A DNA stretch of 64,000 nt, taken from IMG/VR virus record IMGVR_UViG_3300005201_000042, positions 1 through 64,000 of that record, one strand, 5' to 3'. The translations under genes and the position numbers were made by a program. The stretch's first letter is position 1, and each line of letters starts with the position of its first letter. Source of the DNA: a virus (Duplodnaviria > Caudoviricetes). Below, in pieces: positions 6,680 to 41,244 of this stretch. The notes below the pieces were generated by a model. It was not told the DNA's origin, searched no databases, and saw only the letters and a program-made list of their open reading frames with translations.

Positions 6680-6865
6680 ATGCAGATAGATATTCCAGAT
6701 GAAATTTTTGCAAAAGTAGTCAGAGATTTAAGGCATTTTGAAAGTGGTCATGGAGCTAGGTCAGATTTACATGATGCTCTTTGTGTCTGTGAAACTCTGC
6801 TAGAATTCTTGGATGAGCATAAATGGTATGAGGAGAAATTAATAAGAGGACATTGTGATGAATAA
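6680..6865 (+). CDS. hypothetical protein
   Basis: 61-aa ORF with RBS. Confidence 0.5.
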   Translation: MQIDIPDEIFAKVVRDLRHFESGHGARSDLHDALCVCETLLEFLDEHKWYEEKLIRGHCDE

Positions 6866-8669
6866 AAATTACCTTAATTTTATTAGTTTCGCTCGAGGTA
6901 TTCAATGCGGTTTTAACACAAACGATATTCCATTACTTGAAGAAGAAAACGCACAACAGATTTACGACAAGGCTTTGGTCGGTCTCTGCTCTTCTTTTGA
7001 TATTGAGCAAGACATTTTAAACCAGTATAAGAACGGTGAGTTGGATTCTTGGGATGCTGTTGAACAGTTGGAAGACGAACTTGGTTATTCTTATGATGAT
7101 GCTTGTAAGAAGGTTTCTACTCTTTTTTCGGGTAAATTCTCTAGTAAGTTTGTGATCCCAAAAATAGAGGAAGCCCCCGCTTATTGGATTAGTCCAGATT
7201 GCAGAATTATTTCTGTTTATAAAAAGCACATTGATATGATTTGGGATTGTCCAGAGGCTTTTGGTTATTCTCAAAGGGATTTAGAGAATATTTACGATGC
7301 TTATAGTGAGCCTTATAGATCTGAGGGGGATGCTCGTAATTACATTGTAGATGATATGATTCTTAGACGAGGTTGGATTCGTATTCGTTTTCAGCATGTC
7401 AGTAATCTATATCATGTAGAAATTGGTGAATTACGCAATAAACGAAAAGATGCACTTTGGCTTTGGGCATCTGCCTTAGTACGAGTTAATTCACGAAAGG
7501 CTCTATCAAGAGTTATTATTTGTAAATGCGGTCAAAGCCAACCAGATTTTACAGGTTCTTTACAAGAACTAATTAACTGCAATTTATTTAGTTCTCATGG
7601 CATGGGTTTTCATCTTCTCGTTCCTATAAGTAATGTTTATGATTTTTTAAGTGTAAACCCTATTTATATGGCTTATAATAGGGGAAAGCGTAAACGATCC
7701 AAGTACCACGGCGCATTGGTCAATAATACCTTTGACGATGTTTCTACAGGGCTTTCTACGGTCTCACCTGCTTCTTCAGCATCCACAGCTTCCAGTATCA
7801 AAGCCCACCCCTCTATTCGCTTTCTAGTGGTTAATCATATTCTACATCCTACGAGAAGGCATTTGATACAGTCTTCTCTCTCTGGTTCTCTGGACACTCT
7901 TCTGTATCAAACTTACGTTACTGCTTTGGGAGGCAGGGTTTCCCCAGCTCCTGTTAATACCCCAGGTAATAATCTTAAACACACTGGTAAAAACGGACGG
8001 GTAGTGTTAAGTTTTAAGAGTGATTCAGGTCATTCCACCGAGGTTGACTTGGGAGGCAGTTTAGAGACTGGTTACGTTATACAGCAAATTGATGATGGGC
8101 TGGGTTTGTTTCCTGAAGGCACGGAGATAGGGGATCTTATTAAAAATGATGTTATACAGGAAATTATACGAGGTCAGGTTATGAGGGAAAGAGGAGATTG
8201 GAGTGTTATGAACGAGTTTGATAGAAAAGAGCCTTTTAATCTTATAAAGTCTAGTTCTGAGTACAGTTGGATTTTTTCAATGGCAAGGATGCAAGACCCT
8301 GATAACGATGTTCCCAGTTATCTTCACGATTTATTTTCTAAACTTCCTTTAGATGGATGGTTTGGTGACGATGTCAATCCAGAGCTTTGTAATAAGTTCT
8401 CTGCTCAGGTCGGTGTTAGTCCAGACTATGTTTTCTACTTTACTTTTAAGCGTGGTTCTGACAATCATTCTTTAGCAGAGTCTCCTGAAGGAGATGCATT
8501 TAAATTCTGCTCTTTGTTCCTTCAGAAAGGTTCTCAATGGTTTAAACGAGATAACCTATCTCAGGACGATTTTATTAAATGTAGAGAGTTTGTTCGTGTT
8601 GGTGATGTTTCTTCTGCTGTTTGGGAATTAAAGATGGAATCTACACCTAATAGAAATCCTTTAGCATGA
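6855..8669 (+). CDS. modular putative internal head polyprotein
   Basis: helical GYS module, WISP..GWIR domain, C-terminal MAR module; modules separated by LFSS, LIQSS, LIKSS, IFS. Confidence 0.55.
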   Translation: MMNKNYLNFISFARGIQCGFNTNDIPLLEEENAQQIYDKALVGLCSSFDIEQDILNQYKNGELDSWDAVEQLEDELGYSYDDACKKVSTLFSGKFSSKFVIPKIEEAPAYWISPDCRIISVYKKHIDMIWDCPEAFGYSQRDLENIYDAYSEPYRSEGDARNYIVDDMILRRGWIRIRFQHVSNLYHVEIGELRNKRKDALWLWASALVRVNSRKALSRVIICKCGQSQPDFTGSLQELINCNLFSSHGMGFHLLVPISNVYDFLSVNPIYMAYNRGKRKRSKYHGALVNNTFDDVSTGLSTVSPASSASTASSIKAHPSIRFLVVNHILHPTRRHLIQSSLSGSLDTLLYQTYVTALGGRVSPAPVNTPGNNLKHTGKNGRVVLSFKSDSGHSTEVDLGGSLETGYVIQQIDDGLGLFPEGTEIGDLIKNDVIQEIIRGQVMRERGDWSVMNEFDRKEPFNLIKSSSEYSWIFSMARMQDPDNDVPSYLHDLFSKLPLDGWFGDDVNPELCNKFSAQVGVSPDYVFYFTFKRGSDNHSLAESPEGDAFKFCSLFLQKGSQWFKRDNLSQDDFIKCREFVRVGDVSSAVWELKMESTPNRNPLA

Positions 8670-8672
8670 TGT

Positions 8673-8882
8673 ATGCAGTTAAATATTATCTTTGACGCAT
8701 CTTCTTTAGATGATATGCAGGTTAAACTGAATGAGCATTTTGGGCAGAAAATGCGTCTTATTAGAGTTTCTCTGTCTTTATTTGAATCTTACCATGTGCG
8801 GTTTACCGAGAAGTTTATTCCTCATATCTGGGAGTATCGTGTGGTTTGTAAAGATGGTAAGTATTTCTTTGGTTCTTTATAG
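8673..8882 (+). CDS. hypothetical protein
   Basis: 69-aa ORF. Confidence 0.5.
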   Translation: MQLNIIFDASSLDDMQVKLNEHFGQKMRLIRVSLSLFESYHVRFTEKFIPHIWEYRVVCKDGKYFFGSL

Positions 8883-8884
8883 CG

Positions 8885-8922
8885 TTATACATACTGGTAA
8901 ATTTTGTTAAAGGTGGTATGCT
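8885..8922 (+). promoter_or_regulatory. early promoter family copy
   Basis: TTATACATAC-TGGTAA-N16-TATGCT with extended TG. Confidence 0.55.
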
Positions 8923-8950
8923 TTAATAGGTAAATAGCAGGGAGATTATT

Positions 8951-9373
8951 ATGGCAAGGATTAAAGATGAGAGAACAATTCCACAGCATCTTCAGGATGG
9001 TATGGGTTTTGGGGTCGGTTACGAGGAGATACCATGGGATTTTTGGCTTGGGGATGATGCTGATTGTGGTAAATGCTCCACGATAGCTTGTAGGTATAGT
9101 GTTGAGGATGTATACTACTATTTTTGTTTTGATAGAGATTCACAAGGTGATTTTAAATTCAGAGCTTTAGTTGCATCACAAGAGTCTGGTACAGATTCTT
9201 CTCTTCCCCATAAGTGGTTTGCAAAGAAGTATACAGAACAAGATTTTGAGGGGGTTAGAAAATCAATTTGTCATTGTCAGGAGTACGCTGTTAGTGATTT
9301 AGGTTTAGTTCAGGAGGATATTCATAATCCTTTTAGTTTTATCTATAGGTTGAGGTTATCTAACGAGCTTTAG
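8951..9373 (+). CDS. free-standing MAR/FKFRAL-module protein
   Basis: paralogous to modules inside 6855-8669 and 9395-14755; RBS GGGAG. Confidence 0.65.
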   Translation: MARIKDERTIPQHLQDGMGFGVGYEEIPWDFWLGDDADCGKCSTIACRYSVEDVYYYFCFDRDSQGDFKFRALVASQESGTDSSLPHKWFAKKYTEQDFEGVRKSICHCQEYAVSDLGLVQEDIHNPFSFIYRLRLSNEL

Positions 9374-9377
9374 TTGT

Positions 9378-9385
9378 TTTATATA
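9378..9385 (+). promoter_or_regulatory. late promoter motif TTTATATA
   Basis: directly upstream of the 1.8-kaa polyvalent gene. Confidence 0.55.
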
Positions 9386-9394
9386 ATGTCTGGT

Positions 9395-12300
9395 ATGTCT
9401 ACTTTAAAAAACAAGTCTGTACCTATATTGTCAATGGCAAGGGGTCTTCCCTCGTCAGTTCCTTCTTATGTGTCTAACAGATTTAATTTCCCTGATGAGT
9501 TTGACGGTTATTATGGAGAGAATAAAAATGTTCAGAACGGGAATGTTTTTTCTCGTTATATTGAGCGCAAGGATAAAAATAATGTCCCTTTTGTTTTTCA
9601 TTTTGTTTTTGGTAGAGAGAAACATGCTTCTCTAGGGGAGTCTCTTCAGGGTAACGCATTTAAATTTAGGGCTTTATTTGTTCAGTATGGAGATAGAAGA
9701 TTTGCTAAGAAATATGAAGATGCTGCTTTTGATAACATCGAGAAAGTAGTTGTTAGTAATTTGTTATCTTCTATCAAAGTTCTTGAGTTATCTGAGGTTT
9801 CTGAAATAAGCCCGTTAATTTATATAAAAAGTGGTGTGGAAATCCACTCAAAGATAGTGGATACACGTACGTTAGATTTATTTGAAGATGCTGTCGATGA
9901 AGCTTTTACAACATCTGCTCCCGCACCTACTCCCAAGAAGGAACCAAAGCCTTCAACACAACCTGCTTCTCGCAAGTCAACTCAAAACTACGCTCATGAA
10001 GAGTCCCTTGAAGGTTTAAAAGATAAATACGTCAACACTTCGCAAGGCATTGATGGTTTTGAGGATTCTATTTACCTTCCTAATGGTGAAGAGGTTTCGG
10101 GTATCTGGAGATTAGTGGACGCTTTCTCTGTATCTCCATCTCATAACCCCTTTTCTTTTCACTCTACAAAAGGTTTCCCTCGCACTGCTGGGGGTTCGTC
10201 AGCTAATACAAGGGATTATTATAATGAAACTGACGCACAGTTACAGGTTGTTCAACTCGCAGGTGAGTTTGACGGTCGGGCTTTAGGTTACGATACTGCT
10301 GTCGTTGTTACAAAAGATGGTGTGGTTGTTTCTGGTAACAATAGGACGATGAGTTCTCAATTGGCGGCACGGAAAGGGACAGACACAAAATATATTGCTG
10401 CTCTAATAAAACGTTGTCGTTCTTTTGGTTTTACTCCTGAACAGGTTCAGGCTTTTGAGCACCCACGAGTTGTTTTTGAGATTGACTCTCAAGACTATTC
10501 TCCAGAGCATTTTGATAAATACAATCAATCTGATAAGAAGGAACAGTCTGAGGAAGCACGAATAGTAAAGTTCTCTAAAGTGTCAAAGCCTGATGTTCTT
10601 CGGGGTATTGCAGATGTTGCACGAAGGTATCAGTTTGATTTAACTCAAGTGTTTGCTATTCCTGCTGCCTGTGAAGAATTGATGTCTGTGTTTGTAAAAG
10701 CCAAAGTATTTAGTCAGGCAGAGCTTCCTAAGTACTTTGATGGAAATAAGGTGTCTTCTGCTGGTAAGCAGTTTTTATACGAATATATCTTAGGTGGTGT
10801 TTTATCCGAGCCTGTGGTTCGGGCTTTGTATTCTGAGGGTATGGGTAACTTGAAGCAAGCAGTAATTGGTTCTGCTCAGCTACTTTTAGAGAACTGGGCT
10901 TGTGGTAGTTATTCTGTTATGGACGAATTGAATGCTGCTATTCGTTACGCTATCTCATTTGTTACTGAGGTAAACAACGGCACGTTTGTAGTGCCTAAAA
11001 TTGATAAAGATGAAGCTAAAGCAATGTCTGCTGATGATAAGGTGGCTCACAACTTAAAAGCGTTCAATGTATGGGCTAGTCAAGGGGATTTGTTAGAGGA
11101 CAGGCATCCGTTGGTTTTGAAGCTTGCAGGGGCGTTGGTCTACTCTGTTCCTTTATTTAAAGATTATTTAACTAGGTTAAACACGGCTACAGCTTCTGCT
11201 GCTAAAACCGAGAGGGAAACTGAGGAGGCTGGTAACTCTGGCCTGTTCGGAGATGAGGAAGACTTTACGCCTGATCGTTATGGTTTATTAGAAAAAGCTG
11301 TAGCTTCGTGGCAAAGAAGAAATTTTGTTAAGAGAAATATATTAAGTTCTGTATTGAGGGGTAGTTTTTCTTTGTTTCCAGTTAAAAGGGATTGGAGTAA
11401 TATCTTTTCTAGTGTTGGTTCTGGGGCTAGTGTCTTTCAAAAGCTAGGAGACGTGTTAAAGTCTGGTTCTTCTTTTGTTGTTCAAAACTCTGAGTTGGGT
11501 AGCATTAGTATCGACAAAGGTTGCACGGGAAAGAATGGTTACGGGCTTTTGCACATTATCGAGGCGAGGCATTTTAGAGATAAGCTTTCTGTAGACGATC
11601 TTTGTGGTCTTATTTACAAAGTTGTAGAAGCCGCAGAAGGTGGTGAAGTTGTGTCGCATCAACCTGATCTTAAAGCTGGTCTTGATTACGGTCATGTGGG
11701 TATTGAGAAAGATGGTGTTATTGCTTATGTTAGCTTGGCTCGGTATGAAGATGTAAAAGATCGCTTCATATTAACTGGGTTTGCAATTTATGAAAAAGAA
11801 AAAGAGGCGACCGATGCTATACGAACGGGTATCGCTCAGTATGGCTACTCGCCTGAGTTCTCTTGTTTCCGATCTCAGGTGGGAGCGGTTATCGCCTCTC
11901 TTAATGGAGTATGTGGTAGTTTTTCAAATAATGCAAGTGTGTATAAAAACGGAGGTTTTATGGCAAATAATAAAACGATGGTTCGGTCTGGTCTAACTGG
12001 AGCTGGTACTGAAATGGACACAATGATTTCCGATATAAAAAATCTATTTGATAACCATCAAATTTCTGACAGTGAGGCTTATAAAAGGTTGTCAGGGCTT
12101 GGGCTTTCTGATCCTTTTATTCATAGGGTGATGGTAGATTGGTTTCATAGTAAAGAAGCTAGGCTTGCATCTGGTTTCTATCCTCATAGAAGTCTTCAAT
12201 CTCAAGCTCTCTTTCAAGACCTAAAAAACAAGATAATGAAATGGACTGCTCAAGACCCTAACAACAAAAAAGCCTATCAACAGGCTATGAAGTTGTTTAG

Positions 12301-14755
12301 GGAAAACTTCGGTAAGCATCCTCAAACTGAAAGAGACGCAAAGGTTATATTGAAGACTGCAAAGAAGATGGCTAAGACTGGTCAGATTTACGATGCAGAG
12401 TCTTTCAAACAAGAAGCCCAACAGGTAATGAATGAACAACCCCAGCAAGGTACACAAACTCAGACGCAACAGCAATCTCAAGGTCAACAAGGAAGTGTAG
12501 ACGCTTCTGATCCTGTGGCTCTGTTCAAAGCCATTCAAGCTCTCTACAGATACGGCTCTATTTCTAAAGATCAGGTTGATAAGGCTTTTAGAATGGTTGT
12601 AGGTGGTCAAGGAAGGCAAAATGCTTATAATATGTCAAACCAATCTCAAGGCGAGCAGATGGCTGCTTCCTTAAAGAGGGTTTCTTCTGGTTATGGTGCT
12701 TCTGACGATATTCCCTACGGGTTTAAACAGTTTGATCATGCAGTTAGAATCTACGACTCAAGTAAAGGTATGTTTGACCACTGGTATGCTCCTTCGGGCA
12801 TGGGAAATATCTCAGTTTATGAAAATAAGGATGGTTCTGGGCGGCTTGGCACTCTGAATTTTTCACTATTGAAGGTGTCTCCAGACCAGTTTTGGGGTTT
12901 TATTCGAGACAACGGGCTACTTGCTTCTGACGATGTTTATTCCTCTGTGGGGCTTTCTTCTGGTAAAAACCCAGGTGTAAGATTTGATAGACTTCCCAAG
13001 GGTGTTTCAGGTTTACAAATAGGTTCCAGGGTTAAATTCACACCTCTCAAGTCATCTAAAGACAATCTAGACTTTGTTGCACAGAAAGACACATTGTACG
13101 CTGGTAAAACTGGTGTTATAAGAGCAATTAAAAACGAAGTCTACAATGTTGAAATGCCAGATGAAGATGGTGTCCCAGGAGAGGTGATCTCTGCTCATAG
13201 TATGGAGTTACAGCGAGTAGCCTCTGAGGAAGAACTTTTCTCTGCCAGGGGTATTATTGCAGACCCAATGAGGGAGTACGTTCAACAATTTCTTTCTAAT
13301 ATTCCTTCTTTCACAAAAGTTCCAACAAACTACAAAGATGAACGTATTGTGAAGGAGAAACTAGAGCCTGATCATGTTTGCTATTGGTATTCCGAGACCA
13401 TTGATAATGGTAAGCCTTATACTGTTGAGTTCCACGTGTCTCCAGGTGAACCTTTTTGTGATGTGTATGTGGTTCGTGATTTTGATAATCACCCTTTGGA
13501 CGATGGAGGTTATCACATCGCAGATTTCGAAGATTGGAATTTATCTGAGGTTGATTATGTAGAGGGTTTGTTTGCTAAGGAAAAAGCTTTTACCGGGGAT
13601 AGTGCTTCTTTTGATAAAACTAAGACAAAGCCTGTAGAAGATGGTTTTGACGATGAAGATTATTCACAGATTATGGCTGGGTTGGATCCTCGAGTTTCTA
13701 TCATGTTAGAACTACATCCTGAACTTAGTCACTGGTCACCAGATGATTTAACAGTGTTATATGAATTGCAAGATAGAGGTGGGGATTATGTAGAAGATGT
13801 AAACCGTGTACTAAATACGAGAGATTCAAAGACTTTATTGTCATCTTTTGATAAATGGTCTGCCAGGGTCAGTGCTGGTCTTTCGCTTGGAAAGGGAATG
13901 TCTTTACCTGATATGGCTATTGTTTCTGGTCTAGCACGGATTTTATCTAGTGATTCTATTTCACGTCCTGATGACTCTTTATTTAAACGTGGTGATCGAG
14001 TAAAAGGGACTCCCAGTAACTATAGAAAAGAAGGTCAGTTGGGTACGGTACAAGGTGTCTCTGAGTACAGTGTTTATGGTGATTCTTGGGATATAGAATG
14101 GGACAATGGTGGTATTTCAAGAGCTTTTAAAAATGAGATTGAGCTTATTTCTTCTGGCTTGGCAAGGGTTTTGTCTGCAGGTGCTAATACTTCCACGGCT
14201 TTAACCCCAGAGGAGGTTGTAAGGGATTTTAAAGATGGCGCGATAGACTGGTATAACGCTTTTGATATGTTAGCTGATTATGAGGTATCTGATGAAGACG
14301 CAGAGAGGATGCTTGGGGTATCACGGGTTGTTCAAGGTTTCACCGAGGGTTACAACAAAACCTTAGACGTAGTGGACACTCTTGTTCATGACCCATTAAA
14401 GACAGTTGATGACGTTGCTTCTCTGCCTTTTAAGTTTTTGGACAAGGTTACTGGGAGGAGCAAGAAGAAGGTTAGGTCAAGTTATACACCCTTGTATTCT
14501 GGTGAGTTTAATCGTATACTATCTGCAGGAACAAGGAGTAGTGTTGTCGAGGAGTTCAACAAACTTCTTGAATCTGTCTTTCCTGATAAAAGATGGGAGT
14601 TGAAAAGAGCAGTTCCTATGAGAGGTGGTTGGTATACTTTAGATTTCTTAACGATAGATAAGTCAGATGTTAATTACAATGTGAAGTTTGACGAGAGGAT
14701 TTTCAAAGTTTGTAAGGATTCTAATAGTATTTGGATTATACAGGAGGATTTATAA
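9395..14755 (+). CDS. large polyvalent virion protein (ddrB-like ParB domain, PBECR-type nuclease domain, SH3/KOW-like modules)
   Basis: VVSGNNRTMS plus NTRDY (ddrB-ParB, ~10075-10500); KGCTGKNGYGLLHIIEARH (PBECR, ~11490-11830); two GxRV...GxV modules; start may be 9386. Confidence 0.7.
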   Translation: MSTLKNKSVPILSMARGLPSSVPSYVSNRFNFPDEFDGYYGENKNVQNGNVFSRYIERKDKNNVPFVFHFVFGREKHASLGESLQGNAFKFRALFVQYGDRRFAKKYEDAAFDNIEKVVVSNLLSSIKVLELSEVSEISPLIYIKSGVEIHSKIVDTRTLDLFEDAVDEAFTTSAPAPTPKKEPKPSTQPASRKSTQNYAHEESLEGLKDKYVNTSQGIDGFEDSIYLPNGEEVSGIWRLVDAFSVSPSHNPFSFHSTKGFPRTAGGSSANTRDYYNETDAQLQVVQLAGEFDGRALGYDTAVVVTKDGVVVSGNNRTMSSQLAARKGTDTKYIAALIKRCRSFGFTPEQVQAFEHPRVVFEIDSQDYSPEHFDKYNQSDKKEQSEEARIVKFSKVSKPDVLRGIADVARRYQFDLTQVFAIPAACEELMSVFVKAKVFSQAELPKYFDGNKVSSAGKQFLYEYILGGVLSEPVVRALYSEGMGNLKQAVIGSAQLLLENWACGSYSVMDELNAAIRYAISFVTEVNNGTFVVPKIDKDEAKAMSADDKVAHNLKAFNVWASQGDLLEDRHPLVLKLAGALVYSVPLFKDYLTRLNTATASAAKTERETEEAGNSGLFGDEEDFTPDRYGLLEKAVASWQRRNFVKRNILSSVLRGSFSLFPVKRDWSNIFSSVGSGASVFQKLGDVLKSGSSFVVQNSELGSISIDKGCTGKNGYGLLHIIEARHFRDKLSVDDLCGLIYKVVEAAEGGEVVSHQPDLKAGLDYGHVGIEKDGVIAYVSLARYEDVKDRFILTGFAIYEKEKEATDAIRTGIAQYGYSPEFSCFRSQVGAVIASLNGVCGSFSNNASVYKNGGFMANNKTMVRSGLTGAGTEMDTMISDIKNLFDNHQISDSEAYKRLSGLGLSDPFIHRVMVDWFHSKEARLASGFYPHRSLQSQALFQDLKNKIMKWTAQDPNNKKAYQQAMKLFRENFGKHPQTERDAKVILKTAKKMAKTGQIYDAESFKQEAQQVMNEQPQQGTQTQTQQQSQGQQGSVDASDPVALFKAIQALYRYGSISKDQVDKAFRMVVGGQGRQNAYNMSNQSQGEQMAASLKRVSSGYGASDDIPYGFKQFDHAVRIYDSSKGMFDHWYAPSGMGNISVYENKDGSGRLGTLNFSLLKVSPDQFWGFIRDNGLLASDDVYSSVGLSSGKNPGVRFDRLPKGVSGLQIGSRVKFTPLKSSKDNLDFVAQKDTLYAGKTGVIRAIKNEVYNVEMPDEDGVPGEVISAHSMELQRVASEEELFSARGIIADPMREYVQQFLSNIPSFTKVPTNYKDERIVKEKLEPDHVCYWYSETIDNGKPYTVEFHVSPGEPFCDVYVVRDFDNHPLDDGGYHIADFEDWNLSEVDYVEGLFAKEKAFTGDSASFDKTKTKPVEDGFDDEDYSQIMAGLDPRVSIMLELHPELSHWSPDDLTVLYELQDRGGDYVEDVNRVLNTRDSKTLLSSFDKWSARVSAGLSLGKGMSLPDMAIVSGLARILSSDSISRPDDSLFKRGDRVKGTPSNYRKEGQLGTVQGVSEYSVYGDSWDIEWDNGGISRAFKNEIELISSGLARVLSAGANTSTALTPEEVVRDFKDGAIDWYNAFDMLADYEVSDEDAERMLGVSRVVQGFTEGYNKTLDVVDTLVHDPLKTVDDVASLPFKFLDKVTGRSKKKVRSSYTPLYSGEFNRILSAGTRSSVVEEFNKLLESVFPDKRWELKRAVPMRGGWYTLDFLTIDKSDVNYNVKFDERIFKVCKDSNSIWIIQEDL
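14482..14520 (+). promoter_or_regulatory. early promoter embedded in CDS
   Basis: TTATACACCC-TTGTAT-N17-TATACT. Confidence 0.75.
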
Positions 14756-19070: not shown

Positions 19071-19220
19071 ATGGCAAGGTCAAGAAAAAAAAATCAACAC
19101 AGAGGTTGGGGTCAGAAGGGTTGTTTTGGTAATCCTAAACCAAATCATTATTCTGAGGACGAGTATGTTCCTACCATCCGGCATCAGAAGGGTGGTAAGC
19201 ATTCAAGGCATCAAAGATAA
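19071..19220 (+). CDS. small basic protein (49 aa, not in ORF track)
   Basis: RBS AAGGAGG; MARSRKKNQHRG...; TAATG overlap with the next gene. Confidence 0.55.
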   Translation: MARSRKKNQHRGWGQKGCFGNPKPNHYSEDEYVPTIRHQKGGKHSRHQR

Positions 19221-26962: not shown

Positions 26963-27001
26963 CTATACACCCTTGTTTTCTAGAAGTCGCTATGCTATAT
27001 T
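26963..27001 (+). promoter_or_regulatory. early promoter family copy
   Basis: CTATACACCC-TTGTTT-N17-TATATT. Confidence 0.7.
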
Positions 27002-32469: not shown

Positions 32470-34404
32470 ATGGCAGTAGAATTTGACGATGTAAAAGAGA
32501 TAGTTCGGGCTGTGGCTCTCCGCTTGGATAGTCCTTCATCCAAATATAGTTTTATCTTTTCAGAGTCAGATGATGCAGTTGAGGTTAGTATCGAGGTTTC
32601 TGGTTCTCTTGACCCAATATTTGTTTTTGTGGTTGATGCAGAGCGGTTCAGGGTTCTCAAAGCTTTAGACCTTGATCAAGACAGCTACGTTTCTTTCGCT
32701 TATCACAGTCATGTAGAGCTTCTATCTTATATAATTCAATACTTCTACCCTGTTTATTTTAAGCTTTCTAATTACGGTACTCTTAATTCTATGTTATCAA
32801 GGGTTTTGGGTAAGCGAATTAGGATATGGAAAGATTTACTCAGGGTTATCTGTGAGGCTGGTCAGGTTGAGTTTTACGATCGAGGTAAGGTCTTTAAAGT
32901 GTTAGAAACTAATTTTGCCTATAATTTAGAAAATCAAACTCTCACGGTTTCTGGAGAGTTGAATGATGTTTATAAATGTCGAACCACTATGGAACTTATT
33001 ACAACCTTGTTTACGGTTTTGGCTTACATTTTCCAGTTAAATGAGTTAGAGATAAACCCTCTTTTCGGTGTTCAACTTGTTGAAGAAGGGGATGATTCTT
33101 TATTTGACGCTGAGATGGCTATGGGTGAAGACATTGATTCTATGGGTATGGGTGGGGGCGATATCGGTGGGGACATGGGAGAAGGGGAAGATTTAAGTAA
33201 CGAGTTTGTCCCTGCTGGAGATTCTGTGGAGAATACTGCGCCAGATATGAGTGAAGGTAAGAATGAGATTATGGACGAGGTTAATGCTAATTACTCTCCT
33301 TCTAAAGGCAATAAGCCTATTTTGTCTGCTTTTATCACATCAGGGGGAGGTGCATGGTTTTCTCCTCAAGGAAAGTTTTACCTGCTCGATAGTTCTCATG
33401 AACAATTTGTGAATGAGAACGGAAGTCTTTTTAATTGTCCTACTTCGTTAAGTGGAGACGACCTTGTTTCTCATGCTTTAACTAAGGGCTGGGTACGTAT
33501 TCGAGGAGAACAGTCAGATATTAACGTAGAAATTCACTCTGGTTCACGATGTGTTTCAAGGTTGTCTGCTGTGGCTCATTACTTGGTTAGTGAGGCAGGT
33601 CACGATCCATCCAGCTCTATTGCTTTAGATATTTACAGCTCTCCTGAGAATAAGGGAGTTTCTATAAGGTGCACCTTACAAGAGTTAATGGACGAATCTG
33701 CATCTATCCCTTCTTATTTAACTTCTGCAAAGAATTACACAGTGGTTGAAGAAGCTGTCTACAAATCAGGGGGAGTTAAAGAACCAGTCTTTTCTGACTA
33801 CGATGATAATATAGTTTTAGAGGCTTCTACTTCAGTCACTCCTGTACATAATGTTAGTGCTGCCCTCTTGGAAATTTTAGGTTTATGTGTGGAATACGCT
33901 AGAGAAGTTTCAGTGGCTTTTTCAAGGCTTGCAGCTGGTCGGTTTTTGATGAGTGCAAAAGGTGGTAGTGGTGTTGAGGAAGATGTGTCTGATTTTCTTG
34001 CCTATCTTAGTAAAACAGAGTCTTATATAAGTCAGATTAACAGCAGATTAAGAGACGCAAAAAGACTTCAAGATGCAGGTTTACGAGGGAGTATTCAAGT
34101 AAAAGAGACTAATAGGTTTATTGATTCTCTTAACGACCGTAATTTGTCTATAGGTGCAGACTTCTTTGATTTATTAGAGCGGACAAAGGAAGCAGAGGAG
34201 GATTTGAAGGTTCTCCTGTCTGCTGTTGAGAAGGCTAAGTCCTCAATAGGAAATATGAGAAAATTGTTTTCTGAAACGGACGAGTTAATAACATATTTGG
34301 AAGTTCATAGTCCAAATATAAAAGGGAAGGTGAATCATATAATACTTCCTTCCACAGAAGATCCTGACAAGCAAATAGTTTCTGAGGCTGTGTTTACAGA
34401 GTAA
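32470..34404 (+). CDS. modular protein with acidic linker, WISP domain and coiled-coil tail
   Basis: PILSAFITSG before WFSPQG...GWVRIR; YLTSA after. Confidence 0.6.
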   Translation: MAVEFDDVKEIVRAVALRLDSPSSKYSFIFSESDDAVEVSIEVSGSLDPIFVFVVDAERFRVLKALDLDQDSYVSFAYHSHVELLSYIIQYFYPVYFKLSNYGTLNSMLSRVLGKRIRIWKDLLRVICEAGQVEFYDRGKVFKVLETNFAYNLENQTLTVSGELNDVYKCRTTMELITTLFTVLAYIFQLNELEINPLFGVQLVEEGDDSLFDAEMAMGEDIDSMGMGGGDIGGDMGEGEDLSNEFVPAGDSVENTAPDMSEGKNEIMDEVNANYSPSKGNKPILSAFITSGGGAWFSPQGKFYLLDSSHEQFVNENGSLFNCPTSLSGDDLVSHALTKGWVRIRGEQSDINVEIHSGSRCVSRLSAVAHYLVSEAGHDPSSSIALDIYSSPENKGVSIRCTLQELMDESASIPSYLTSAKNYTVVEEAVYKSGGVKEPVFSDYDDNIVLEASTSVTPVHNVSAALLEILGLCVEYAREVSVAFSRLAAGRFLMSAKGGSGVEEDVSDFLAYLSKTESYISQINSRLRDAKRLQDAGLRGSIQVKETNRFIDSLNDRNLSIGADFFDLLERTKEAEEDLKVLLSAVEKAKSSIGNMRKLFSETDELITYLEVHSPNIKGKVNHIILPSTEDPDKQIVSEAVFTE

Positions 34405-35118: not shown

Positions 35119-37158
35119 ATGCCGATGTTCACGTCTTTAAAAAGTAGGCTACCGCAGATAGGTGAGAAATTACAAAAGTTTATTTTAGGTGCAGATGACG
35201 AAGAGTTAATTTCAAGGGTAAAAAACTACACTAATCACGCTAGTTATGGAGCAGACATCTGGGGTGATTCTTCCTCTATGCAGACTCTTGGCTTGCTTCG
35301 TGAAGTCCCTGCAATGCTTCGAGATCCTATTATTCAATCTTGTATCGGTATTATTATGGAGACTTCTTTTCAGATGAATGATAAGAATAAAGTTCTCTGG
35401 CCTGTGTCTTCTTATGATTCAATCAAGAAGGAGTTAGAAAACTTCCATGAAAAAGTAAACATGAGCCAGCACGCAGTTATTCTGGGGTTTAATCTTTTAC
35501 CGTGGGGTAATTTGCCTTACAAGCACCACTTTGATAAAGATGGTAAATTCTCAGACTTTACTCCTATTCCAGACTTCACAAAGGTTGTTCCTGTTGTTGT
35601 TTCTGGTAAGACCTTAGGGTTTATGGTTGGTAATCAGTTTTGTTTCCCTTACGAGTTTTCTTATGCTCAGTTAGAGTTCTATAAAAATCTTGGGGGGATT
35701 TACAAAAGTAACTTTGTACAGTTCTCAGGGAATATGGACGGTAAAGATGTATTCGGAGAGGACTTTCAGAATGAGTTTGTTGTTGCACCTTCTTATTTGT
35801 CCACTGCGGCAAGACCGTGGAAGAATATAAATATAATTGAAGACGCTCTACTTTTAAATCGAATGGATCAATCTAATTACTACAGAATATTCTCAGTTCT
35901 GGTCGGAGGTTCTGTTACTTCTAAGTCAGCTATAAGGACTCTTAACTACTATCGTAACTTGTTTAAGAAGGTTCGCAGGGTGTCTTATAATTCTTCTGGT
36001 ATGGCTTCATCTGGTGTAGGGAATGAGTTTGAGATAATACTTCCTAAAACTGAAAAACAGGGTTTAGAGGTTACTGACGTGGGAGGAACCGTGGATATTA
36101 AGGCTCTTAAAGACCTTGATGTTCAGTACAACAAGCTTTTTGCGGCTCTTAAGGTTCAACCCTCTCAGATTGGTTTTGGAGAGGAGCAGACAAACGCTAT
36201 CGGGGATACTAATGGACAGTCTTACGACCGGCGTTTAGCAAGAACCTGTAAGATGCTGGTTTACTCCGTTCAAAAGACAATCAAGAATTTTGATTATCTA
36301 TACCTTCGCTCTCGAGGTTATGATGTTTCTTTAGATGACTGGTCTTATGGTTCTGTTTCTCTTTCTGTGTTGGAGGATCAAGATAGGGGTACAACTCTAA
36401 AAACTGCAATTGAAAATTTAAAGAGTTTTGCTGAGGTTCTCACTTCTTTACAACTTCAAGAATACAATAAGTCTTATCTGGTTGAATCTGTCTTAGGTTC
36501 TGCTCTGTCTTCTGTTGGAGTGGATGTGAAAGAGCTATTAAAAGTTCCAGAGGGTCAGGAAGCACCTATGGAAGCAGAAGGTGGAGCTGAGGGTGCACCT
36601 CCCCTGTTAGCATCTAGGCAACCCAACCAAATAAATTATAAGAACGCCTATCTAACAAGTATGTTTGATACTATGGAGACAGTTAAGCTAGCTTCTCCAG
36701 AGATTATACAGTCCATGCGAGCTTCTATGTTGGGAAAGGCAGATTCAAATGTTAAAATGATTTCATCTTCAAAAGGTTCTAATATTTTGCCAGCTGCTAT
36801 TTTGGATGATACTACTGCTTATACCTATCCTGAAGAAGCCCAGGTTGATTTAACTGGTCAAGTTGGTTTTATTCAAGGTGAGACTTCACAGATTGTTAGT
36901 GACTTGAATAAAGCTAAATCAAAGAAGTGTGAGGATATGGCTACACTTGATTTTAATACGTCTATTTTAGTTCCAAGTGATTTAAAGATGACTCTTGGAG
37001 ATTACAACACTGCTGGTATCCGTGCTTTGGGTACAGGTTACATTAACTCAAGGGGTGAGGTAATTCTCACGAACAAGGCTGATGTGGCTACTTTCTTATC
37101 GATGAAGCGGTCTGGTTTACTGTCTTGTTTGGTTTCGCGGCTTTATCAGGTTCCGTAG
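35119..37158 (+). CDS. portal protein (T4 gp20-like)
   Basis: IEDALLLNRMDQSNYYRIFSVLVG matches the gp20 EDALVIYR..RRxF pattern; size and position fit. Confidence 0.8.
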   Translation: MPMFTSLKSRLPQIGEKLQKFILGADDEELISRVKNYTNHASYGADIWGDSSSMQTLGLLREVPAMLRDPIIQSCIGIIMETSFQMNDKNKVLWPVSSYDSIKKELENFHEKVNMSQHAVILGFNLLPWGNLPYKHHFDKDGKFSDFTPIPDFTKVVPVVVSGKTLGFMVGNQFCFPYEFSYAQLEFYKNLGGIYKSNFVQFSGNMDGKDVFGEDFQNEFVVAPSYLSTAARPWKNINIIEDALLLNRMDQSNYYRIFSVLVGGSVTSKSAIRTLNYYRNLFKKVRRVSYNSSGMASSGVGNEFEIILPKTEKQGLEVTDVGGTVDIKALKDLDVQYNKLFAALKVQPSQIGFGEEQTNAIGDTNGQSYDRRLARTCKMLVYSVQKTIKNFDYLYLRSRGYDVSLDDWSYGSVSLSVLEDQDRGTTLKTAIENLKSFAEVLTSLQLQEYNKSYLVESVLGSALSSVGVDVKELLKVPEGQEAPMEAEGGAEGAPPLLASRQPNQINYKNAYLTSMFDTMETVKLASPEIIQSMRASMLGKADSNVKMISSSKGSNILPAAILDDTTAYTYPEEAQVDLTGQVGFIQGETSQIVSDLNKAKSKKCEDMATLDFNTSILVPSDLKMTLGDYNTAGIRALGTGYINSRGEVILTNKADVATFLSMKRSGLLSCLVSRLYQVP

Positions 37159-37775: not shown

Positions 37776-38831
37776 ATGGGACAATGGATTTTCGGTAAGG
37801 CATCCCCTGTTTCTTTGTCTGATAAAGGCAAGCAGTTATTAAAATCTTCAGGTTGTATTGTAAGTGATTATGTTGGTGAGTCTGGTTCTTCCAGCAATGG
37901 TCTTCTCTGTACCTTTAAATCTGTTCCTATTGCCTTCTACGACGTTCCTACGCTCAATCAGATGGTATTTAGCCGTAAGCTCTGGGAATGTCTGTTAGAG
38001 AACCAATATCTCAAACAATCAATGGAGAACGGTTCACACTATGGAGAGGCTAAACACGCCGACCGTGATGAGGTTTATCTTGATGAAATAGCTTGCAGGG
38101 TGAACAAGTTCTGGTTCGGTGATAACAATATTCTTTTGGGTGATGTAGACATTCCAGACACTCCTAAAGGACGAATTGTTCATTCCCTTGCTAAAATCAG
38201 CAGGGTTGGTATATCTTCCAGGGGTTTTGGCGAGTTAAGGAACAGGGACGATGGTTTAAAGGACGTTATTCCTGACCAGTATATGCACGTCTGCTGGGAC
38301 ATGGTTGCTTTCCCTGCTGTGCCTGACGCTCACATGACTTTAATTACTGGGGATTCACCTTATGACGAGACAATCAATATGTCCACGGAGCTTCGTAACT
38401 TGATAAGGGAGGCTTATCAAAGGAATCCTAAAGACAAGGCTTTACAAAAGTTGGTTTCCACTGCAAAGATACCCACTGGTAAGAAGTACGATTTTTCACT
38501 TAAAAATGATCTAGACAGAGCAATAATCTCTCATGAGTTAAAGAGGAGAAATAGTTATCCACCCTTGCATTCTAGAGGCATAAGTCGTATAATGAGTTCT
38601 AGAAGAACAATTTCTGCAGCAGTGGCTTATATTTCACAGGCAGTAGGTTCTTTTTATACTGGGGCTTCTTGGAGATTGTCTGTTGAAAATCTACCTGAGG
38701 CTACTTTGGATAATAAGGGTTCTGTTCAGTCTCTTAGTATTTACTATAAGGTAACTAATAAAGAGAGTAGAAAAACTTTTAATATCCGTGCAGTGGTTTC
38801 TTCAAATGGTTTTCAGTTAAGGAGGGGTTAG
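37776..38831 (+). CDS. prohead core protease (T4 gp21-like) with C-terminal extension
   Basis: NQMVFSRKLW, YGEAKH, VGISSRGFG, WDMVAFPA. Confidence 0.88.
   Translation: MGQWIFGKASPVSLSDKGKQLLKSSGCIVSDYVGESGSSSNGLLCTFKSVPIAFYDVPTLNQMVFSRKLWECLLENQYLKQSMENGSHYGEAKHADRDEVYLDEIACRVNKFWFGDNNILLGDVDIPDTPKGRIVHSLAKISRVGISSRGFGELRNRDDGLKDVIPDQYMHVCWDMVAFPAVPDAHMTLITGDSPYDETINMSTELRNLIREAYQRNPKDKALQKLVSTAKIPTGKKYDFSLKNDLDRAIISHELKRRNSYPPLHSRGISRIMSSRRTISAAVAYISQAVGSFYTGASWRLSVENLPEATLDNKGSVQSLSIYYKVTNKESRKTFNIRAVVSSNGFQLRRG
38555..38593 (+). promoter_or_regulatory. early promoter embedded in CDS
   Basis: TTATCCACCC-TTGCAT-N17-TATAAT. Confidence 0.75.
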
Positions 38832-39777: not shown

Positions 39778-41244
39778 ATGATTGAATCAATGGATGAACA
39801 GGGTGTACGTTCTGCTCTGGCTAGTCGGTTTCAGAATGTAGCTGCTTCGGCAGGTGGGGGTAAACCCAGCATATATCAAGATCTAATTGCAAGTTCTGCC
39901 GCAGCTTACCAGAGGAAGTGGAAAAAAGAACTTCCCCAGTCTGTTAAAGCGGTTCTAATGCAGTCTCTTGATAAGATGACCCAGATATTCCAGAACCGTG
40001 ATCGGGTTTCGAGAGAAACAATCATGTCTGCGGTGTCAGATATAGCTAAAGTAGACAATCCTATTACTCTGGCTTACAACCTGATGTCAATTCTTATTCC
40101 TAACTTTGCTTACACTGAGGTTATCGGAATTCAGCCCATTCCTACAAAGGAATCTCCTGTTTTCTATCCGAGGATTGTGGCGAATGAGAATAGGAATAAT
40201 GTGACAAAAGGCTCTGTTCTGCTTGGGTCAACAAACTGGACAGCAAGTAACTCGTTCACAACTAACCAGGTAGCTTCTCCTGTGACTGTTGGTAATACTA
40301 CGGCTCTTTCTTTTACTGCACCTGAAGGTAATATTACGCCGGGTAGCCTTGCGATTACATTGAAGCTTGTAGGCTTGGGTACTTACGTGGTGTTTGATGA
40401 TGGTAAAGGGGTTTTAGTTCCTATTTCTGGTGTCACTGCCTCTACGGCTGGTACAGTAAACTACGCTACTGGTGGGGTTTCTTTAACCTTAGCCGCAGCG
40501 GCTCCAGCTAACTCATCGGCATCCGCTCGCTATCGTTATGAGTTTGCAGATACTACAAAACCTGCACAGGCTAAGCTTGAATGGGTAACTGAGAAAGTAC
40601 GTGCAGAACCCTACAGAATTCGCACAATTTACGAACTTGATGATTTCTTCCAGGTCAAGCAAGTTCTGAGCAACTACGATATTGACTCGGTTCTTTCAAG
40701 TTCGGTGGCAGGTTATATAAACAAAGAAATCAGCGGGAATGTCTTTGATGACATTCTTCTGAAGACTGATGCTGACTTTGCGTGGAATTCGTCTAATCCG
40801 AGTGGTGTTGCTTGGGCGTTGCACAGGTTGTCTTTAATGCAGACATTTGTAAGGGCTGGCAATGGTATTCGTCAGAACATTGCACGTGCTGGAGGTAATA
40901 TTGCCATCTGCGGTAATGAGTGGATGAACTTCATTGAGACTTTGGGTGACGATCTTTGGAAACCAGAGAAGTTTACTGAAGAACCAATAGGGCCTTACGT
41001 TGCAGGTACTTTGGCTGGTAAATTCAAGATTCTTAAGAATCAGGATTACCCTGATACCAAAGCGGCAATGGTGTACAAAAGGGATGACGTGGATGCTTCA
41101 ATTGTTGGTGGTGTGTTCATCGGTTTGTATGCTACTAACCCAGTGGCAATGGACGACCTTAAGGTTATTCAGGGCATGGGCACTCAGTTTGGGTGGCTCA
41201 AGACCTTTGATAACTCAATAGTGTCTCTTACGTTACAGCAGTAG
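39778..41244 (+). CDS. major capsid protein (T4 gp23-like)
   Basis: IPNFAYTEVIGIQPIPTKESPVFY, INKEI, GTLAGKFKILKNQDY; between protease and terminator. Confidence 0.88.
   Translation: MIESMDEQGVRSALASRFQNVAASAGGGKPSIYQDLIASSAAAYQRKWKKELPQSVKAVLMQSLDKMTQIFQNRDRVSRETIMSAVSDIAKVDNPITLAYNLMSILIPNFAYTEVIGIQPIPTKESPVFYPRIVANENRNNVTKGSVLLGSTNWTASNSFTTNQVASPVTVGNTTALSFTAPEGNITPGSLAITLKLVGLGTYVVFDDGKGVLVPISGVTASTAGTVNYATGGVSLTLAAAAPANSSASARYRYEFADTTKPAQAKLEWVTEKVRAEPYRIRTIYELDDFFQVKQVLSNYDIDSVLSSSVAGYINKEISGNVFDDILLKTDADFAWNSSNPSGVAWALHRLSLMQTFVRAGNGIRQNIARAGGNIAICGNEWMNFIETLGDDLWKPEKFTEEPIGPYVAGTLAGKFKILKNQDYPDTKAAMVYKRDDVDASIVGGVFIGLYATNPVAMDDLKVIQGMGTQFGWLKTFDNSIVSLTLQQ

What the first reader, a model, noticed from the sequence alone, without database searches (positions are those of the whole stretch)
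8280..9840. A free-standing gene starts exactly where its fused paralogs follow the cleavage motif
Seen: a ~130-aa module (MAR...PS/QY/HL...FxF.R...FKFRAL) occurs three times in tandem. It is the C-terminus of 6855-8669 (WIFS|MAR, ATG 8280), the stand-alone gene 8951-9373 with its own early promoter (starts MAR), and the N-terminus of 9395 (PILS|MAR, ATG 9434). The DNA TCAATGGCAAGG is shared by the two fused copies. Inference: this natural control supports [IL]-x-S as the module boundary, and it shows one effector made both as an early protein and as virion cargo.
Basis: partly seen in the sequence, partly recalled or inferred. Interest (0 to 1): 0.75.

Follow-up and report, generated by a model that had tools for sequence, protein, structure and literature searches.

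The report
Portable phage domain with cleavage-tag leader
An uncultivated T4-like phage carries three old, diverged copies of a previously undescribed 130-residue domain, one free-standing and two fused to large head-associated proteins behind a conserved Ile-Phe-Ser tag; this fits, but does not prove, that the phage's head protease cuts such domains loose for delivery into the host.

Summary
Three homologous ~130-aa modules lie at 8280-8666 (C-terminus of ORF 6858-8669), 8951-9373 (free-standing) and 9434-9832 (N-terminus of a 1786-aa DdrB-ParB polyvalent protein). Pairwise E-values are 3e-9, 4e-14 and 2e-4. The free-standing gene starts at the Met that follows I-F-S or I-L-S in the fused copies.

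New here:
- The module is an unannotated family of about 30 relatives. Its AF2 model is confident (pLDDT 92) and has no fold match.
- The three copies belong to three separate subfamilies, so they are not a recent triplication.
- The tag before the Met is conserved across the family: Ser at -1 in 26 of 29 junctions and Ile at -3 in 22 of 29. A second [ILV]-x-S|[SAG] site lies 9-10 residues upstream.
- I-x-S-[SAG] is 2.6-fold enriched (z about 10), but only in the large ORFs upstream of the portal gene and in the polyvalent protein. Three related contigs show the same. Codon use points to selection on the protein.
- In relative L007, module 3 ends the upstream gene instead of starting the downstream one.

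The genome encodes a T4 gp21-type (S77) protease. Cleavage and packaging remain inferred. "One effector" is wrong, and "early" is only plausible. Other genomes in this scan gave similar lineage-specific head-protease codes.

The parts
6858..8669 (+). ORF-A, 603 aa from ATG 6858 (GTG 6855 one codon upstream). A modular protein whose last 129 aa are module copy 1.
   Evidence: Orthologues are P0008 (592 aa), P0005/L007 (413 aa) and P0017. L007 lacks a ~170-aa middle block that starts at T-L-F-S|G. The AF2 model has low-pLDDT linkers at residues 92-103 and 456-479.
8238..8279 (+). Bipartite leader of copy 1: L-I-K-S|S-S-E-Y-S-W-I-F-S|.
   Evidence: The same two-site layout precedes the module in most relatives. 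P0017 carries the orthologous leader.
8280..8666 (+). Module copy 1, in the subfamily of P0017, P0009, P0003 and P0007.
   Evidence: clade support 100/98.
8277..8288 (+). First copy of the 12-nt TCAATGGCAAGG. Its partner is at 9431-9442, 1154 bp downstream.
   Evidence: The codons used, TCA, GCA and AGG, make up only 17%, 28% and 30% of their families.
8673..8882 (+). 69-aa ORF between copy 1 and copy 2. No family hit and no SD; it is unclear whether it is a real gene.
8884..8922 (+). Sigma70-like promoter candidate for copy 2: GTTATACA upstream element, TGGTAA as -35, TG-extended TATGCT as -10.
   Evidence: by comparison with 15 family members. This copy is weaker than the consensus.
8951..9373 (+). 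Module copy 2: free-standing, leaderless, 140 aa, with SD GGGAG at 8940-8944.
   Evidence: AF2 gives pLDDT 92.2 and pTM 0.87. No Pfam, PHROG, PDB or fold match.
9378..9433 (+). TTTATATA box (9378-9385), ATGs at 9386 and 9395, and a 13-16-aa leader ending K-S-V-P-I-L-S|.
   Evidence: The leader DNA is homologous to the linker inside ORF-A of relative L007.
9434..9832 (+). Module copy 3, in the subfamily of P0005 and P0008. It ends at I-K-S|G.
   Evidence: support 100/99.
9819..9838 (+). In-frame relic of the ancestral polyvalent-gene promoter and start: TTTATATA, 9 nt, then GTG at 9836.
   Evidence: It aligns with TTTATATA-N7-ATG of the L007 and L009 polyvalent genes, whose products start at the residue matching the window's V-E-I-H-S-K.
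9836..14755 (+). Body of the polyvalent protein. The DdrB-like ParB domain spans about 10082-10456. The whole ORF holds 28 [ILV]-x-S-[SAG] motifs against 8.3 expected.
   Evidence: PF18763, 36.1 bits against a cut-off of 27.6.
37776..38831 (+). T4 gp21-type prohead protease (MEROPS S77), the presumed processing enzyme.
   Evidence: PF03420 at 38.7 bits, phrog_207. The catalytic Ser in G-I-S-S-R-G-F-G and His94 align with T4 gp21, PDB 5JBL.

Best explanation
The ~130-aa module is an autonomous alpha/beta domain of unknown biochemical activity. It is one of the interchangeable host-directed domains that this phage clade strings into head-associated 'polyvalent' proteins. Its N-terminal edge is an almost invariant Met. 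In most family members the Met follows a conserved two-site leader, [ILV]-x-S|[SAG]-x3-[FY]-[QK]-x-I-F-S|M-A-[KR]. This leader is the local form of a clade-wide I-x-S-[SAG] motif. Inference: that motif is the recognition site of the phage's own gp21-type (S77) prohead protease, here with Ser rather than Glu before the cut, and the leader may also act as a capsid-targeting tag like the T4 CTS. On that reading, copies 1 and 3 are loaded into the prohead as parts of ORF-A and the polyvalent protein, cut free, and injected with the DNA. Copy 2 has no leader but has its own SD and a sigma70-like promoter, so it would be made in the cytoplasm and not packaged. If the cut module is the functional unit, stop and start codons can move relative to the modules. 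This is seen: module 3 is the C-terminus of ORF-A in L007 and the N-terminus of the polyvalent protein here. Shown: the homology, the domain edge, the motif conservation and enrichment, the gene-boundary shift and the presence of the protease. Inferred: cleavage, packaging, expression timing and effector function.
For: - Homology of the three copies. Family of about 30 proteins.
- Domain edge: 3 proteins start at the Met, and the AF2 model is ordered from residue 1 at pLDDT 92. The leader in full-length ORF-A has pLDDT below 50.
- Junction conservation over 29 junctions with upstream sequence: Ser at -1 in 26, Phe or Leu at -2 in 26, Ile at -3 in 22, and a second canonical site 9-10 residues upstream. 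P0004 has two modules, each with its own leader.
- Motif enrichment: [ILV]-x-S-[SAG] occurs 98 times against 37.5 expected in the large ORFs. Ser is the only residue enriched at that position (z 10.6), with Ile at -3 (z 10.9). The other 75 ORFs show no enrichment.
- The unbiased per-ORF scan picks 9374, 22936, 25360 and 30042.
- Replication in relatives: L004 gives 20 against 5.3 and 22 against 3.8; L007 gives 18 against 6.2; L009 gives 19 against 5.8.
- Codons at the motif follow genome usage, so selection acts on the protein.
- An S77 protease with catalytic Ser and His is present.
- The capsid protein has a conserved I-[MT]-S|A exactly where identity jumps from 55% to 79%.
- Module 3 and its leader are orthologous between the window and L007 but sit in different genes.
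- In L004 a module gene with a 17-aa leader lies in the head cluster.
- A TTTATATA box precedes the polyvalent gene as well as terL, portal and protease.
- Effector context: DdrB-ParB, an S-AdoMet lyase fused to the module in P0009, and a Mu Gam neighbour for P0006.
Against: - No proteomic or biochemical data exist for this uncultivated clade.
- Every S77 protease characterised so far cuts after Glu: T4 at L/I-x-E, phiKZ and SPN3US at S/A/G-x-E (PMC9026906, PMC10052503).
- The capsid protein also has a conserved phiKZ-type S-[RK]-E four residues upstream of the Ser site, so the Glu rule is not excluded.
- Met after the Ser is not a preferred residue of the general motif. Its near invariance is better explained by folding or by use as a start codon.
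- P0006 carries an F-L-S leader but sits in an early-looking region next to Gam.
- A mechanical test of whether indels between orthologues end at motifs was not significant: 5 of 18 boundaries against 3.4 expected, p 0.25.
- The retained TTTATATA-N9-GTG inside the polyvalent ORF offers a way to make the body without cleavage.
Confidence: 0.5

Rival explanations
1. There is no cleavage. ORF-A and the polyvalent protein act as intact multidomain proteins. The I-x-S-[SAG] motif and the I-F-S leader are conserved inter-domain linkers or docking peptides, for example for binding the scaffold or portal or for folding. The free-standing gene simply uses the conserved Met as its start.
For: Some polyvalent proteins are packaged or transferred unprocessed, such as N4 vRNAP, ArdC and TraC1 (PMC5512222). 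Met after the Ser is atypical for the motif. The leader is modelled as a helix, at low confidence.
Against: A tetrapeptide 2.6-fold enriched, with preferred K/R-P upstream and small residues downstream, confined to head-proximal giant ORFs in a genome with a gp21-type protease, matches how T4, phiKZ and SPN3US cleavage motifs look in sequence. Double sites 7-10 residues apart recur, as in known propeptides that are cut several times.
Confidence: 0.25
2. The conserved ATG is an internal translation start. In the fused genes the module is also, or only, made as a separate nested product, so no protease is needed. The shared ATGGCAAGG reflects selection on the initiation region.
For: Met is kept in 31 of 32 junctions, and the exception has Val, which could be GTG. 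GCA is the second codon in 6 of 7 independent loci although it makes up only 28% of Ala codons. About 44% of genes here lack an SD, and many appear leaderless.
Against: There is no SD before 8280 or 9434, whereas copy 2 has GGGAG. No promoter of either family ends at these ATGs. This model does not explain protein-level conservation of 10-15 residues upstream of the Met across distant relatives.
Confidence: 0.1
3. The junction is cut, but by another enzyme: a host protease (for instance a Prp-like cysteine protease, whose L27 site hydrophobic-F-A|S-K-K looks loosely similar; this is from my own knowledge) or an unrecognised autoprotease in the polyvalent proteins.
For: The junction has the shape hydrophobic-Phe-small|x-x-Lys. 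Polyvalent proteins often carry their own peptidase domains (PMC5512222).
Against: No Prp family match in the phage genome. No peptidase domain was found in ORF-A or the polyvalent protein. The host is unknown. The motif enrichment follows the head-gene neighbourhood, where the S77 protease lies.
Confidence: 0.08
4. Coincidence or annotation artefact: the short leaders are untranslated DNA read in frame, and h-x-S before the Met is chance.
For: [ILV]-x-S alone occurs about once per 36 residues. I-F-S codons are AT-rich and look like -10 boxes. A chance I-L-S|M-A arises from a promoter at 26963.
Against: Copy 1 and about 20 relatives are embedded deep inside long ORFs. The tag is conserved with varying codons: ATT TTT, ATA TTG, ATC TTT, TTC CTT and ATA TTT TCT. 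Copy 3's leader is homologous to coding sequence in L007.
Confidence: 0.02

Closest known systems
Phage T4 internal proteins IPI, IPII, IPIII and Alt, with the capsid-targeting sequence (CTS) and the gp21 prohead protease (PMC9026906)
   Same: The head genes are of T4 type (Gp20 portal, S77 protease, Gp23 capsid protein). Short N-terminal leaders of about 10-20 aa end in a hydrophobic-x-X motif. Diverse, fast-evolving host-directed proteins would be loaded into the head and injected. T4 also keeps paralogues in both compartments: Alt is packaged, ModA and ModB are early genes (own knowledge).
   Different: The residue before the presumed cut is Ser, not Glu. Tags are internal as well as N-terminal and join many modules in proteins of 600-1800 aa. 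The domain is unrelated to IPs or Alt. Nothing has been shown experimentally.
Polyvalent proteins of phages and conjugative elements, including DdrB-like ParB proteins (Iyer et al. 2017, PMC5512222)
   Same: A DdrB-ParB domain scores above the Pfam cut-off. Many unrelated domains sit in one polypeptide. The gene lies among late and head genes. The same domain is also found solo. Mosaic shuffling between relatives is seen. An anti-restriction partner domain, S-AdoMet lyase, is fused to the module in P0009.
   Different: No MuF or zincin-type autopeptidase was found. Processing would rely on the prohead protease and a repeated tetrapeptide. The ~130-aa module matches no Pfam family, so it is probably not among the domains catalogued there.
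phiKZ, 201phi2-1 and SPN3US ejection proteins cut by gp175/gp245 at S/A/G-x-E (PMC10052503, PMC9026906)
   Same: The protease family is the same. Multiple redundant sites occur within propeptides, and paralogous cargo families exist.
   Different: Those enzymes cut after Glu and almost only remove N-terminal propeptides. Here the motif ends in Ser and separates internal modules.
Herpesvirus assemblin sites (V/L/I)-x-A|S (own knowledge; the gp21 fold is assemblin-like)
   Same: Hydrophobic at P3, small residue at P1, small residue at P1'.
   Different: A different virus lineage. This is a resemblance only and was not tested.

Membership tests
Polyvalent protein with DdrB-like ParB domain (PF18763; Iyer et al. 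2017) | DdrB-ParB domain scoring above the curated cut-off | tested here: met
   36.1 bits against a cut-off of 27.6, residues 230-354 of the 9395 protein. The L007 and L009 orthologues carry it too.
Polyvalent protein with DdrB-like ParB domain (PF18763; Iyer et al. 2017) | Several unrelated domains in one polypeptide, the same domains also occurring solo, and a phage late or head-gene context | tested here: met
   The module is seen solo, N-terminal, C-terminal, internal and doubled. A TTTATATA box is shared with terL, portal and protease.
T4-type CTS / gp21 processing of internal head proteins | S77 prohead protease encoded, with catalytic Ser and His | tested here: met
   PF03420 at 38.7 bits against a cut-off of 27. 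Ser in G-I-S-S-R-G-F-G and His94 align to T4 gp21, PDB 5JBL (the pairwise E-value there is weak, 0.09).
T4-type CTS / gp21 processing of internal head proteins | Cleavage motif ending in Glu (L/I-x-E, or S/A/G-x-E) | tested here: not met
   26 of 29 junctions end in Ser and 1 in Glu. [LI]-x-E followed by a small residue is not enriched, while [ILV]-x-S-[SAG] is, at z 10.6.
T4-type CTS / gp21 processing of internal head proteins | Short N-terminal leader that targets the protein to the prohead and is removed | not testable with these tools
   Leaders of 7-22 aa exist in sequence. Targeting and removal need virion proteomics.
Any described protein domain family for the ~130-aa module | Significant match to Pfam, PHROGs, PDB sequences or a solved or predicted fold | tested here: inconclusive
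   No Pfam or PHROG hit for any of 24 members over the module. PDB profile search gave E >= 0.46. Foldseek gave E >= 0.07. The best VIA-align Z was 5.7, below the tool's stated noise level of 7-8.
RraB (PF06877, regulator of RNase E) | Score above the gathering threshold over the domain | tested here: inconclusive
   Only P0012 matches, at 21.1 bits against a cut-off of 23.3, over half the profile. No RraB-like chain appeared among the 50 fold rows shown.

The most novel reading that the evidence does not exclude
This clade's gp21-family prohead protease has switched from cutting after Glu to cutting after Ser, at [K/R]-P-I-x-S|[S/A/G]. The 10-15-residue leader, aromatic-Q-x-I-F-S, is a portable load-and-cut tag. 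Any domain placed behind it, at the start, middle or end of any late gene, is delivered into the host as a separate protein. Gene boundaries therefore drift freely relative to modules. Leaderless paralogues let the phage supply the same type of activity a second time from within the cell.
Probability: 0.4. Interest if true: 0.7.

Novelty: new variant of a known kind. Interest (0 to 1): 0.55.

Why it matters
If the tag is a real protease and targeting signal, it gives a sequence rule for reading the giant hypothetical proteins of this uncultivated phage clade. The related contigs come from metagenomes; one bacterial contig with a module gene also carries a Treponema-type TP_1001 Pfam domain, but no host or habitat was established. 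The rule would turn those giant proteins into lists of separately delivered effectors. It would also extend the known specificity range of S77 head proteases beyond Glu. The three-way arrangement here is a ready-made experiment: the same domain type with no leader, with a 13-aa leader, and embedded after 475 residues. The domain itself is a new, confidently folded family that travels with anti-restriction functions (DdrB-ParB, SAM lyase, Gam), so it is a reasonable candidate for an anti-defence or host-takeover protein.

Tried and rejected
- Nucleotide search of 7.8 kb against 50,697 phage records: no match. tblastn of copy 2 against the same collection: no match.
- IMG/VR scan with the polyvalent N-terminus: nothing confirmed.
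- Word-based protein search with the family alignment: only 5 proteins, no names.
- ESM Atlas: best feature score 0.75, structure TM <= 0.5, uninformative.
- Fold searches: no convincing match. The weak rows include small inhibitor and immunity proteins (TriTu, DddI, PsiB, Ugi, AcrIIA11) at Z 3.9-5.4. That is within noise, so I draw no function from it.
- AF2 of whole ORF-A: mean pLDDT 59. It is usable only for locating linkers.
- DNA-level origin of the motif, such as in-frame -10 or TTTATATA boxes: rejected, because codons at the motif mirror genome-wide usage.
- Phage-encoded Prp-type protease: not found.
- Automated test that orthologue indels end at motifs: not significant (p 0.25). By eye, several large indels do start or end at a motif: T-L-F-S|G in ORF-A; V-R-S|G to L-A-S|G; the C-terminal block after V-R-S|S. 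MAFFT gap placement is too arbitrary to count on this.
- Co-variation test: does the one junction ending in Glu (P0011) come from a phage with a Glu-type code? Its contig is only 1.8 kb, and so is P0028's.
- Recent tandem triplication: rejected by the tree.

Full report
**Setting.** The window is the first 64 kb of an 86-kb IMG/VR virus record estimated at about 60% complete. All long ORFs are on the + strand and GC is 37-43%. The phage has no close cultured relative. A 7.8-kb nucleotide query found nothing in 50,697 phage records, and TerL is 26% identical to Vibrio SIO-2-like phages. The head genes are of T4 type: a Gp20-like portal at 35119-37158, an S77 prohead protease at 37776-38831 and a Gp23-like capsid protein at 39778-41244.

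**The observation.**
- Pairwise BLASTP gives E 3e-9 (copy 1/2), 4e-14 (copy 1/3) and 2e-4 (copy 2/3) at 26-32% identity.
- A profile of the three finds no fourth copy in the genome.
- TCAATGGCAAGG occurs only at 8277 and 9431. ATGGCAAGG also heads copy 2, and a fourth, unrelated copy lies at 19071.
- Copy 2 has a GGGAG Shine-Dalgarno. The in-frame ATGs of copies 1 and 3 have none. Across the genome, 56% of gene starts have an SD-like word against 17% of internal Met codons.

**What the module is.** A profile search of 1.8 billion representatives found 31 proteins, 22 of them at E<=1e-10. One, P0026, is a repeat protein that I set aside.
- None of 24 aligned members matches Pfam or PHROGs over the module. 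A PDB sequence-profile search was empty.
- With that alignment AF2 gives a confident model: pLDDT 92.2 and pTM 0.87. It has a five-stranded sheet with flanking helices and is ordered from residue 1.
- Foldseek against PDB and BFVD and the exhaustive VIA-align search gave nothing above noise; the best Z was 5.7. The domain is a new family of unknown activity.
- Its company suggests host-directed or anti-defence roles. It sits on a DdrB-ParB polyvalent protein here and in L007 and L009. It is fused to an S-AdoMet lyase domain in P0009. P0006 lies next to Mu Gam in an integrase-bearing element. It is fused to TPR repeats in P0021 and to a membrane region in P0019.
- Polyvalent proteins with DdrB-ParB, solo versions of their domains and processing before packaging are described in PMC5512222.

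**The copies are old paralogues.** In a maximum-likelihood tree of 31 module instances the three copies fall in different places.
- Copy 1 groups with P0017, P0009, P0003 and P0007 (support 100/98).
- Copy 3 groups with P0005 and P0008 (100/99).
- Copy 2 lies in an unresolved group near P0006 and P0002.

Each is therefore closer to proteins of other phages than to its neighbours, and "one effector made twice" is not right. Against that depth, the identical M-A-R codons in all three copies are unexpected, roughly 1 in 100 from codon usage, and orthologues mostly have Lys at the third position. I cannot explain this. Short-tract conversion, recombination at the junctions (the two 12-mers flank exactly 1154 bp) or selection on an initiation region are all possible.

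**The junction.** The key result is that homology does not stop at the Met. Of 32 module instances, 3 begin at the Met: window copy 2, P0019 and P0020. In the 29 with upstream sequence:
- position -1 is Ser in 26;
- position -2 is Phe in 20 and Leu in 6;
- position -3 is Ile in 22.

Nine to ten residues further up lies a second [ILV]-x-S followed by S, A, G or N, often with an aromatic residue and Gln between the two sites. Free-standing relatives carry this as a 7-22-aa N-terminal leader (P0006, P0010, P0015, P0022, P0002). P0004 has two modules, each with its own leader. The Met is therefore the edge of the fold, and the tag is a separate conserved element. In the low-confidence model of whole ORF-A the leader (456-479) and the earlier junction (92-103) fall below pLDDT 50, while the module core reaches 85-94.

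**A clade-wide motif.** [ILV]-x-S alone is too common to mean anything, at about one per 36 residues. With a small residue after it the picture changes.
- An unbiased per-ORF shuffle test singles out 9374-14755 (28 against 8.3), 22936 (10 against 4.2), 25360 (11 against 1.8) and 30042 (13 against 4.0) among 84 ORFs.
- Scanning all 20 residues at the Ser position, only Ser stands out (98 against 37.5, z 10.6). At -3, Ile stands out (43 against 9.3, z 10.9). The other 75 ORFs show nothing, and T4-like L/I-x-E is not enriched.
- Upstream there is a preference for K/R then Pro; [KR]-P-[ILV]-x-S occurs 8 times against 0.6 expected.
- The enrichment recurs in related contigs: L004, whose capsid protein is 76% identical, L007 and L009.
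- Codons at the motif follow genome usage, so the constraint is on the protein, not on embedded DNA signals.
- The capsid protein keeps I-[MT]-S|A-V at residue 84/85, exactly where identity to L004 rises from 55% to 79%. This is the pattern expected of a propeptide boundary. A phiKZ-type S-[RK]-E lies four residues upstream, however, and could equally be the site.
- The protease keeps the catalytic Ser and His of T4 gp21.

**Gene boundaries move around the module.** L007 is syntenic: terL, then ORF-A, then the DdrB-ParB protein.
- There, ORF-A (413 aa) ends with module 3 and a stop. After 55 nt and a TTTATATA box the polyvalent gene starts with M-Q-V-F-S-K.
- In the window, module 3 is instead the N-terminus of the polyvalent protein.
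- DNA alignment shows that its 13-aa leader is the remnant of the L007 ORF-A linker.
- The L007 and L009 promoter-plus-start, TTTATATA-N7-ATG, survives in frame inside the window ORF as TTTATATA-N9-GTG at 9819-9838.

So a module gene was split from ORF-A and then fused, by a deletion of about 60 nt, to the next gene. ORF-A in the window carries a module of another subfamily, as in P0017. Such moves are harmless if the protein is cut at the tags. They are also compatible with uncut multidomain proteins, and the retained internal start could still produce the body alone.

**Expression signals.** TTTATATA is enriched, with 24 copies against 4.6 expected. It lies just upstream of terL, portal, protease and the polyvalent gene, so that gene is probably co-expressed with head genes. 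The copy before 8951 has the upstream element and an extended -10 but a weakened -35. "Early" is an inference.

**Weighing it.** The anatomy matches the T4 scheme in which a short capsid-targeting sequence ending in the protease motif loads diverse internal proteins that are then cut and injected (PMC9026906). The tag here ends in Ser, whereas every characterised S77 enzyme cuts after Glu (PMC9026906, PMC10052503). I put about 0.5 on cleavage by the head protease at or near the tag. Which of the two sites is used is open, because Met is not a preferred residue after the motif. The main rival is an uncleaved linker or docking peptide (0.25). Internal initiation at the conserved ATG (0.1) and another protease (0.08) follow. 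A mechanical test of indel ends against motifs was not significant, so I do not lean on it.

**Relation to earlier notes.** First-stage notes on this genome proposed the same motif, the TTTATATA box and the promoter family; I tested these here. Follow-up reports on other genomes in this scan describe comparable lineage-specific head-protease codes, including one ending in Ser. They are not independent evidence, but they show the theme is recurrent.

Noticed in passing
window 25297-47836 and beyond (for example 25297, 26963, 28056, 31894, 38555, 43906, 46777): A 15-plus-member promoter-like family, GTTATACAcCCTTGtt-N16/17-TAnnnT. Several copies lie inside long ORFs, where the -10 box encodes I-x-S (for example R-I-M-S-S in the protease C-terminal part at 38555). 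The copies at 28056 and 46777 are followed by the same ~25-nt sequence, suggesting a repeated cassette.
   Followed up: partly
window 3949, 9378, 20478, 29993, 35092, 37749, 43501, 48390, 56510, 59327: TTTATATA occurs 24 times against 4.6 expected. It sits 5-27 nt before the starts of terL, portal, protease and other structural genes, often with no SD. This is a late-promoter-like box with possibly leaderless mRNAs.
   Followed up: partly
window 13919-13960 and 14144-14190: The polyvalent protein repeats a linker S|G-L-A-R-[IV]-L-S|[SA] with two motif sites 7 residues apart. It flanks a ~65-aa block that is absent from the L007 orthologue.
   Followed up: partly
window 39778-40035 (capsid protein N-terminus): The first 84 residues are much less conserved than the rest (55% against 79% identity to L004). 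They end at a conserved I-[MT]-S|A and contain S-S-A-A-A-Y-Q, which resembles the module leaders. This is a candidate propeptide.
   Followed up: partly
L009 10001-11770 (P0009): In a syntenic relative, the gene in the ORF-A position encodes an S-AdoMet lyase domain (PF23780, 37.5 bits) followed by the leader and module. The contig's left end carries cellular-looking genes, so this may be a prophage or a chimeric assembly.
   Followed up: no
window 19071-19217: The fourth ATGGCAAGG starts a small, very basic ORF (M-A-R-S-R-K-K...) unrelated to the module.
   Followed up: no
window 8673-8882: A 69-aa ORF with no SD and no family match fills the gap between copy 1 and the promoter of copy 2. The whole 8670-9433 segment is absent from L007.
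   Followed up: no
window 32470-32580: The 644-aa ORF just upstream of the portal gene has an N-terminal S-K-Y-S-F-I-F-S|E about 34 residues in, resembling the module leader.
   Followed up: no
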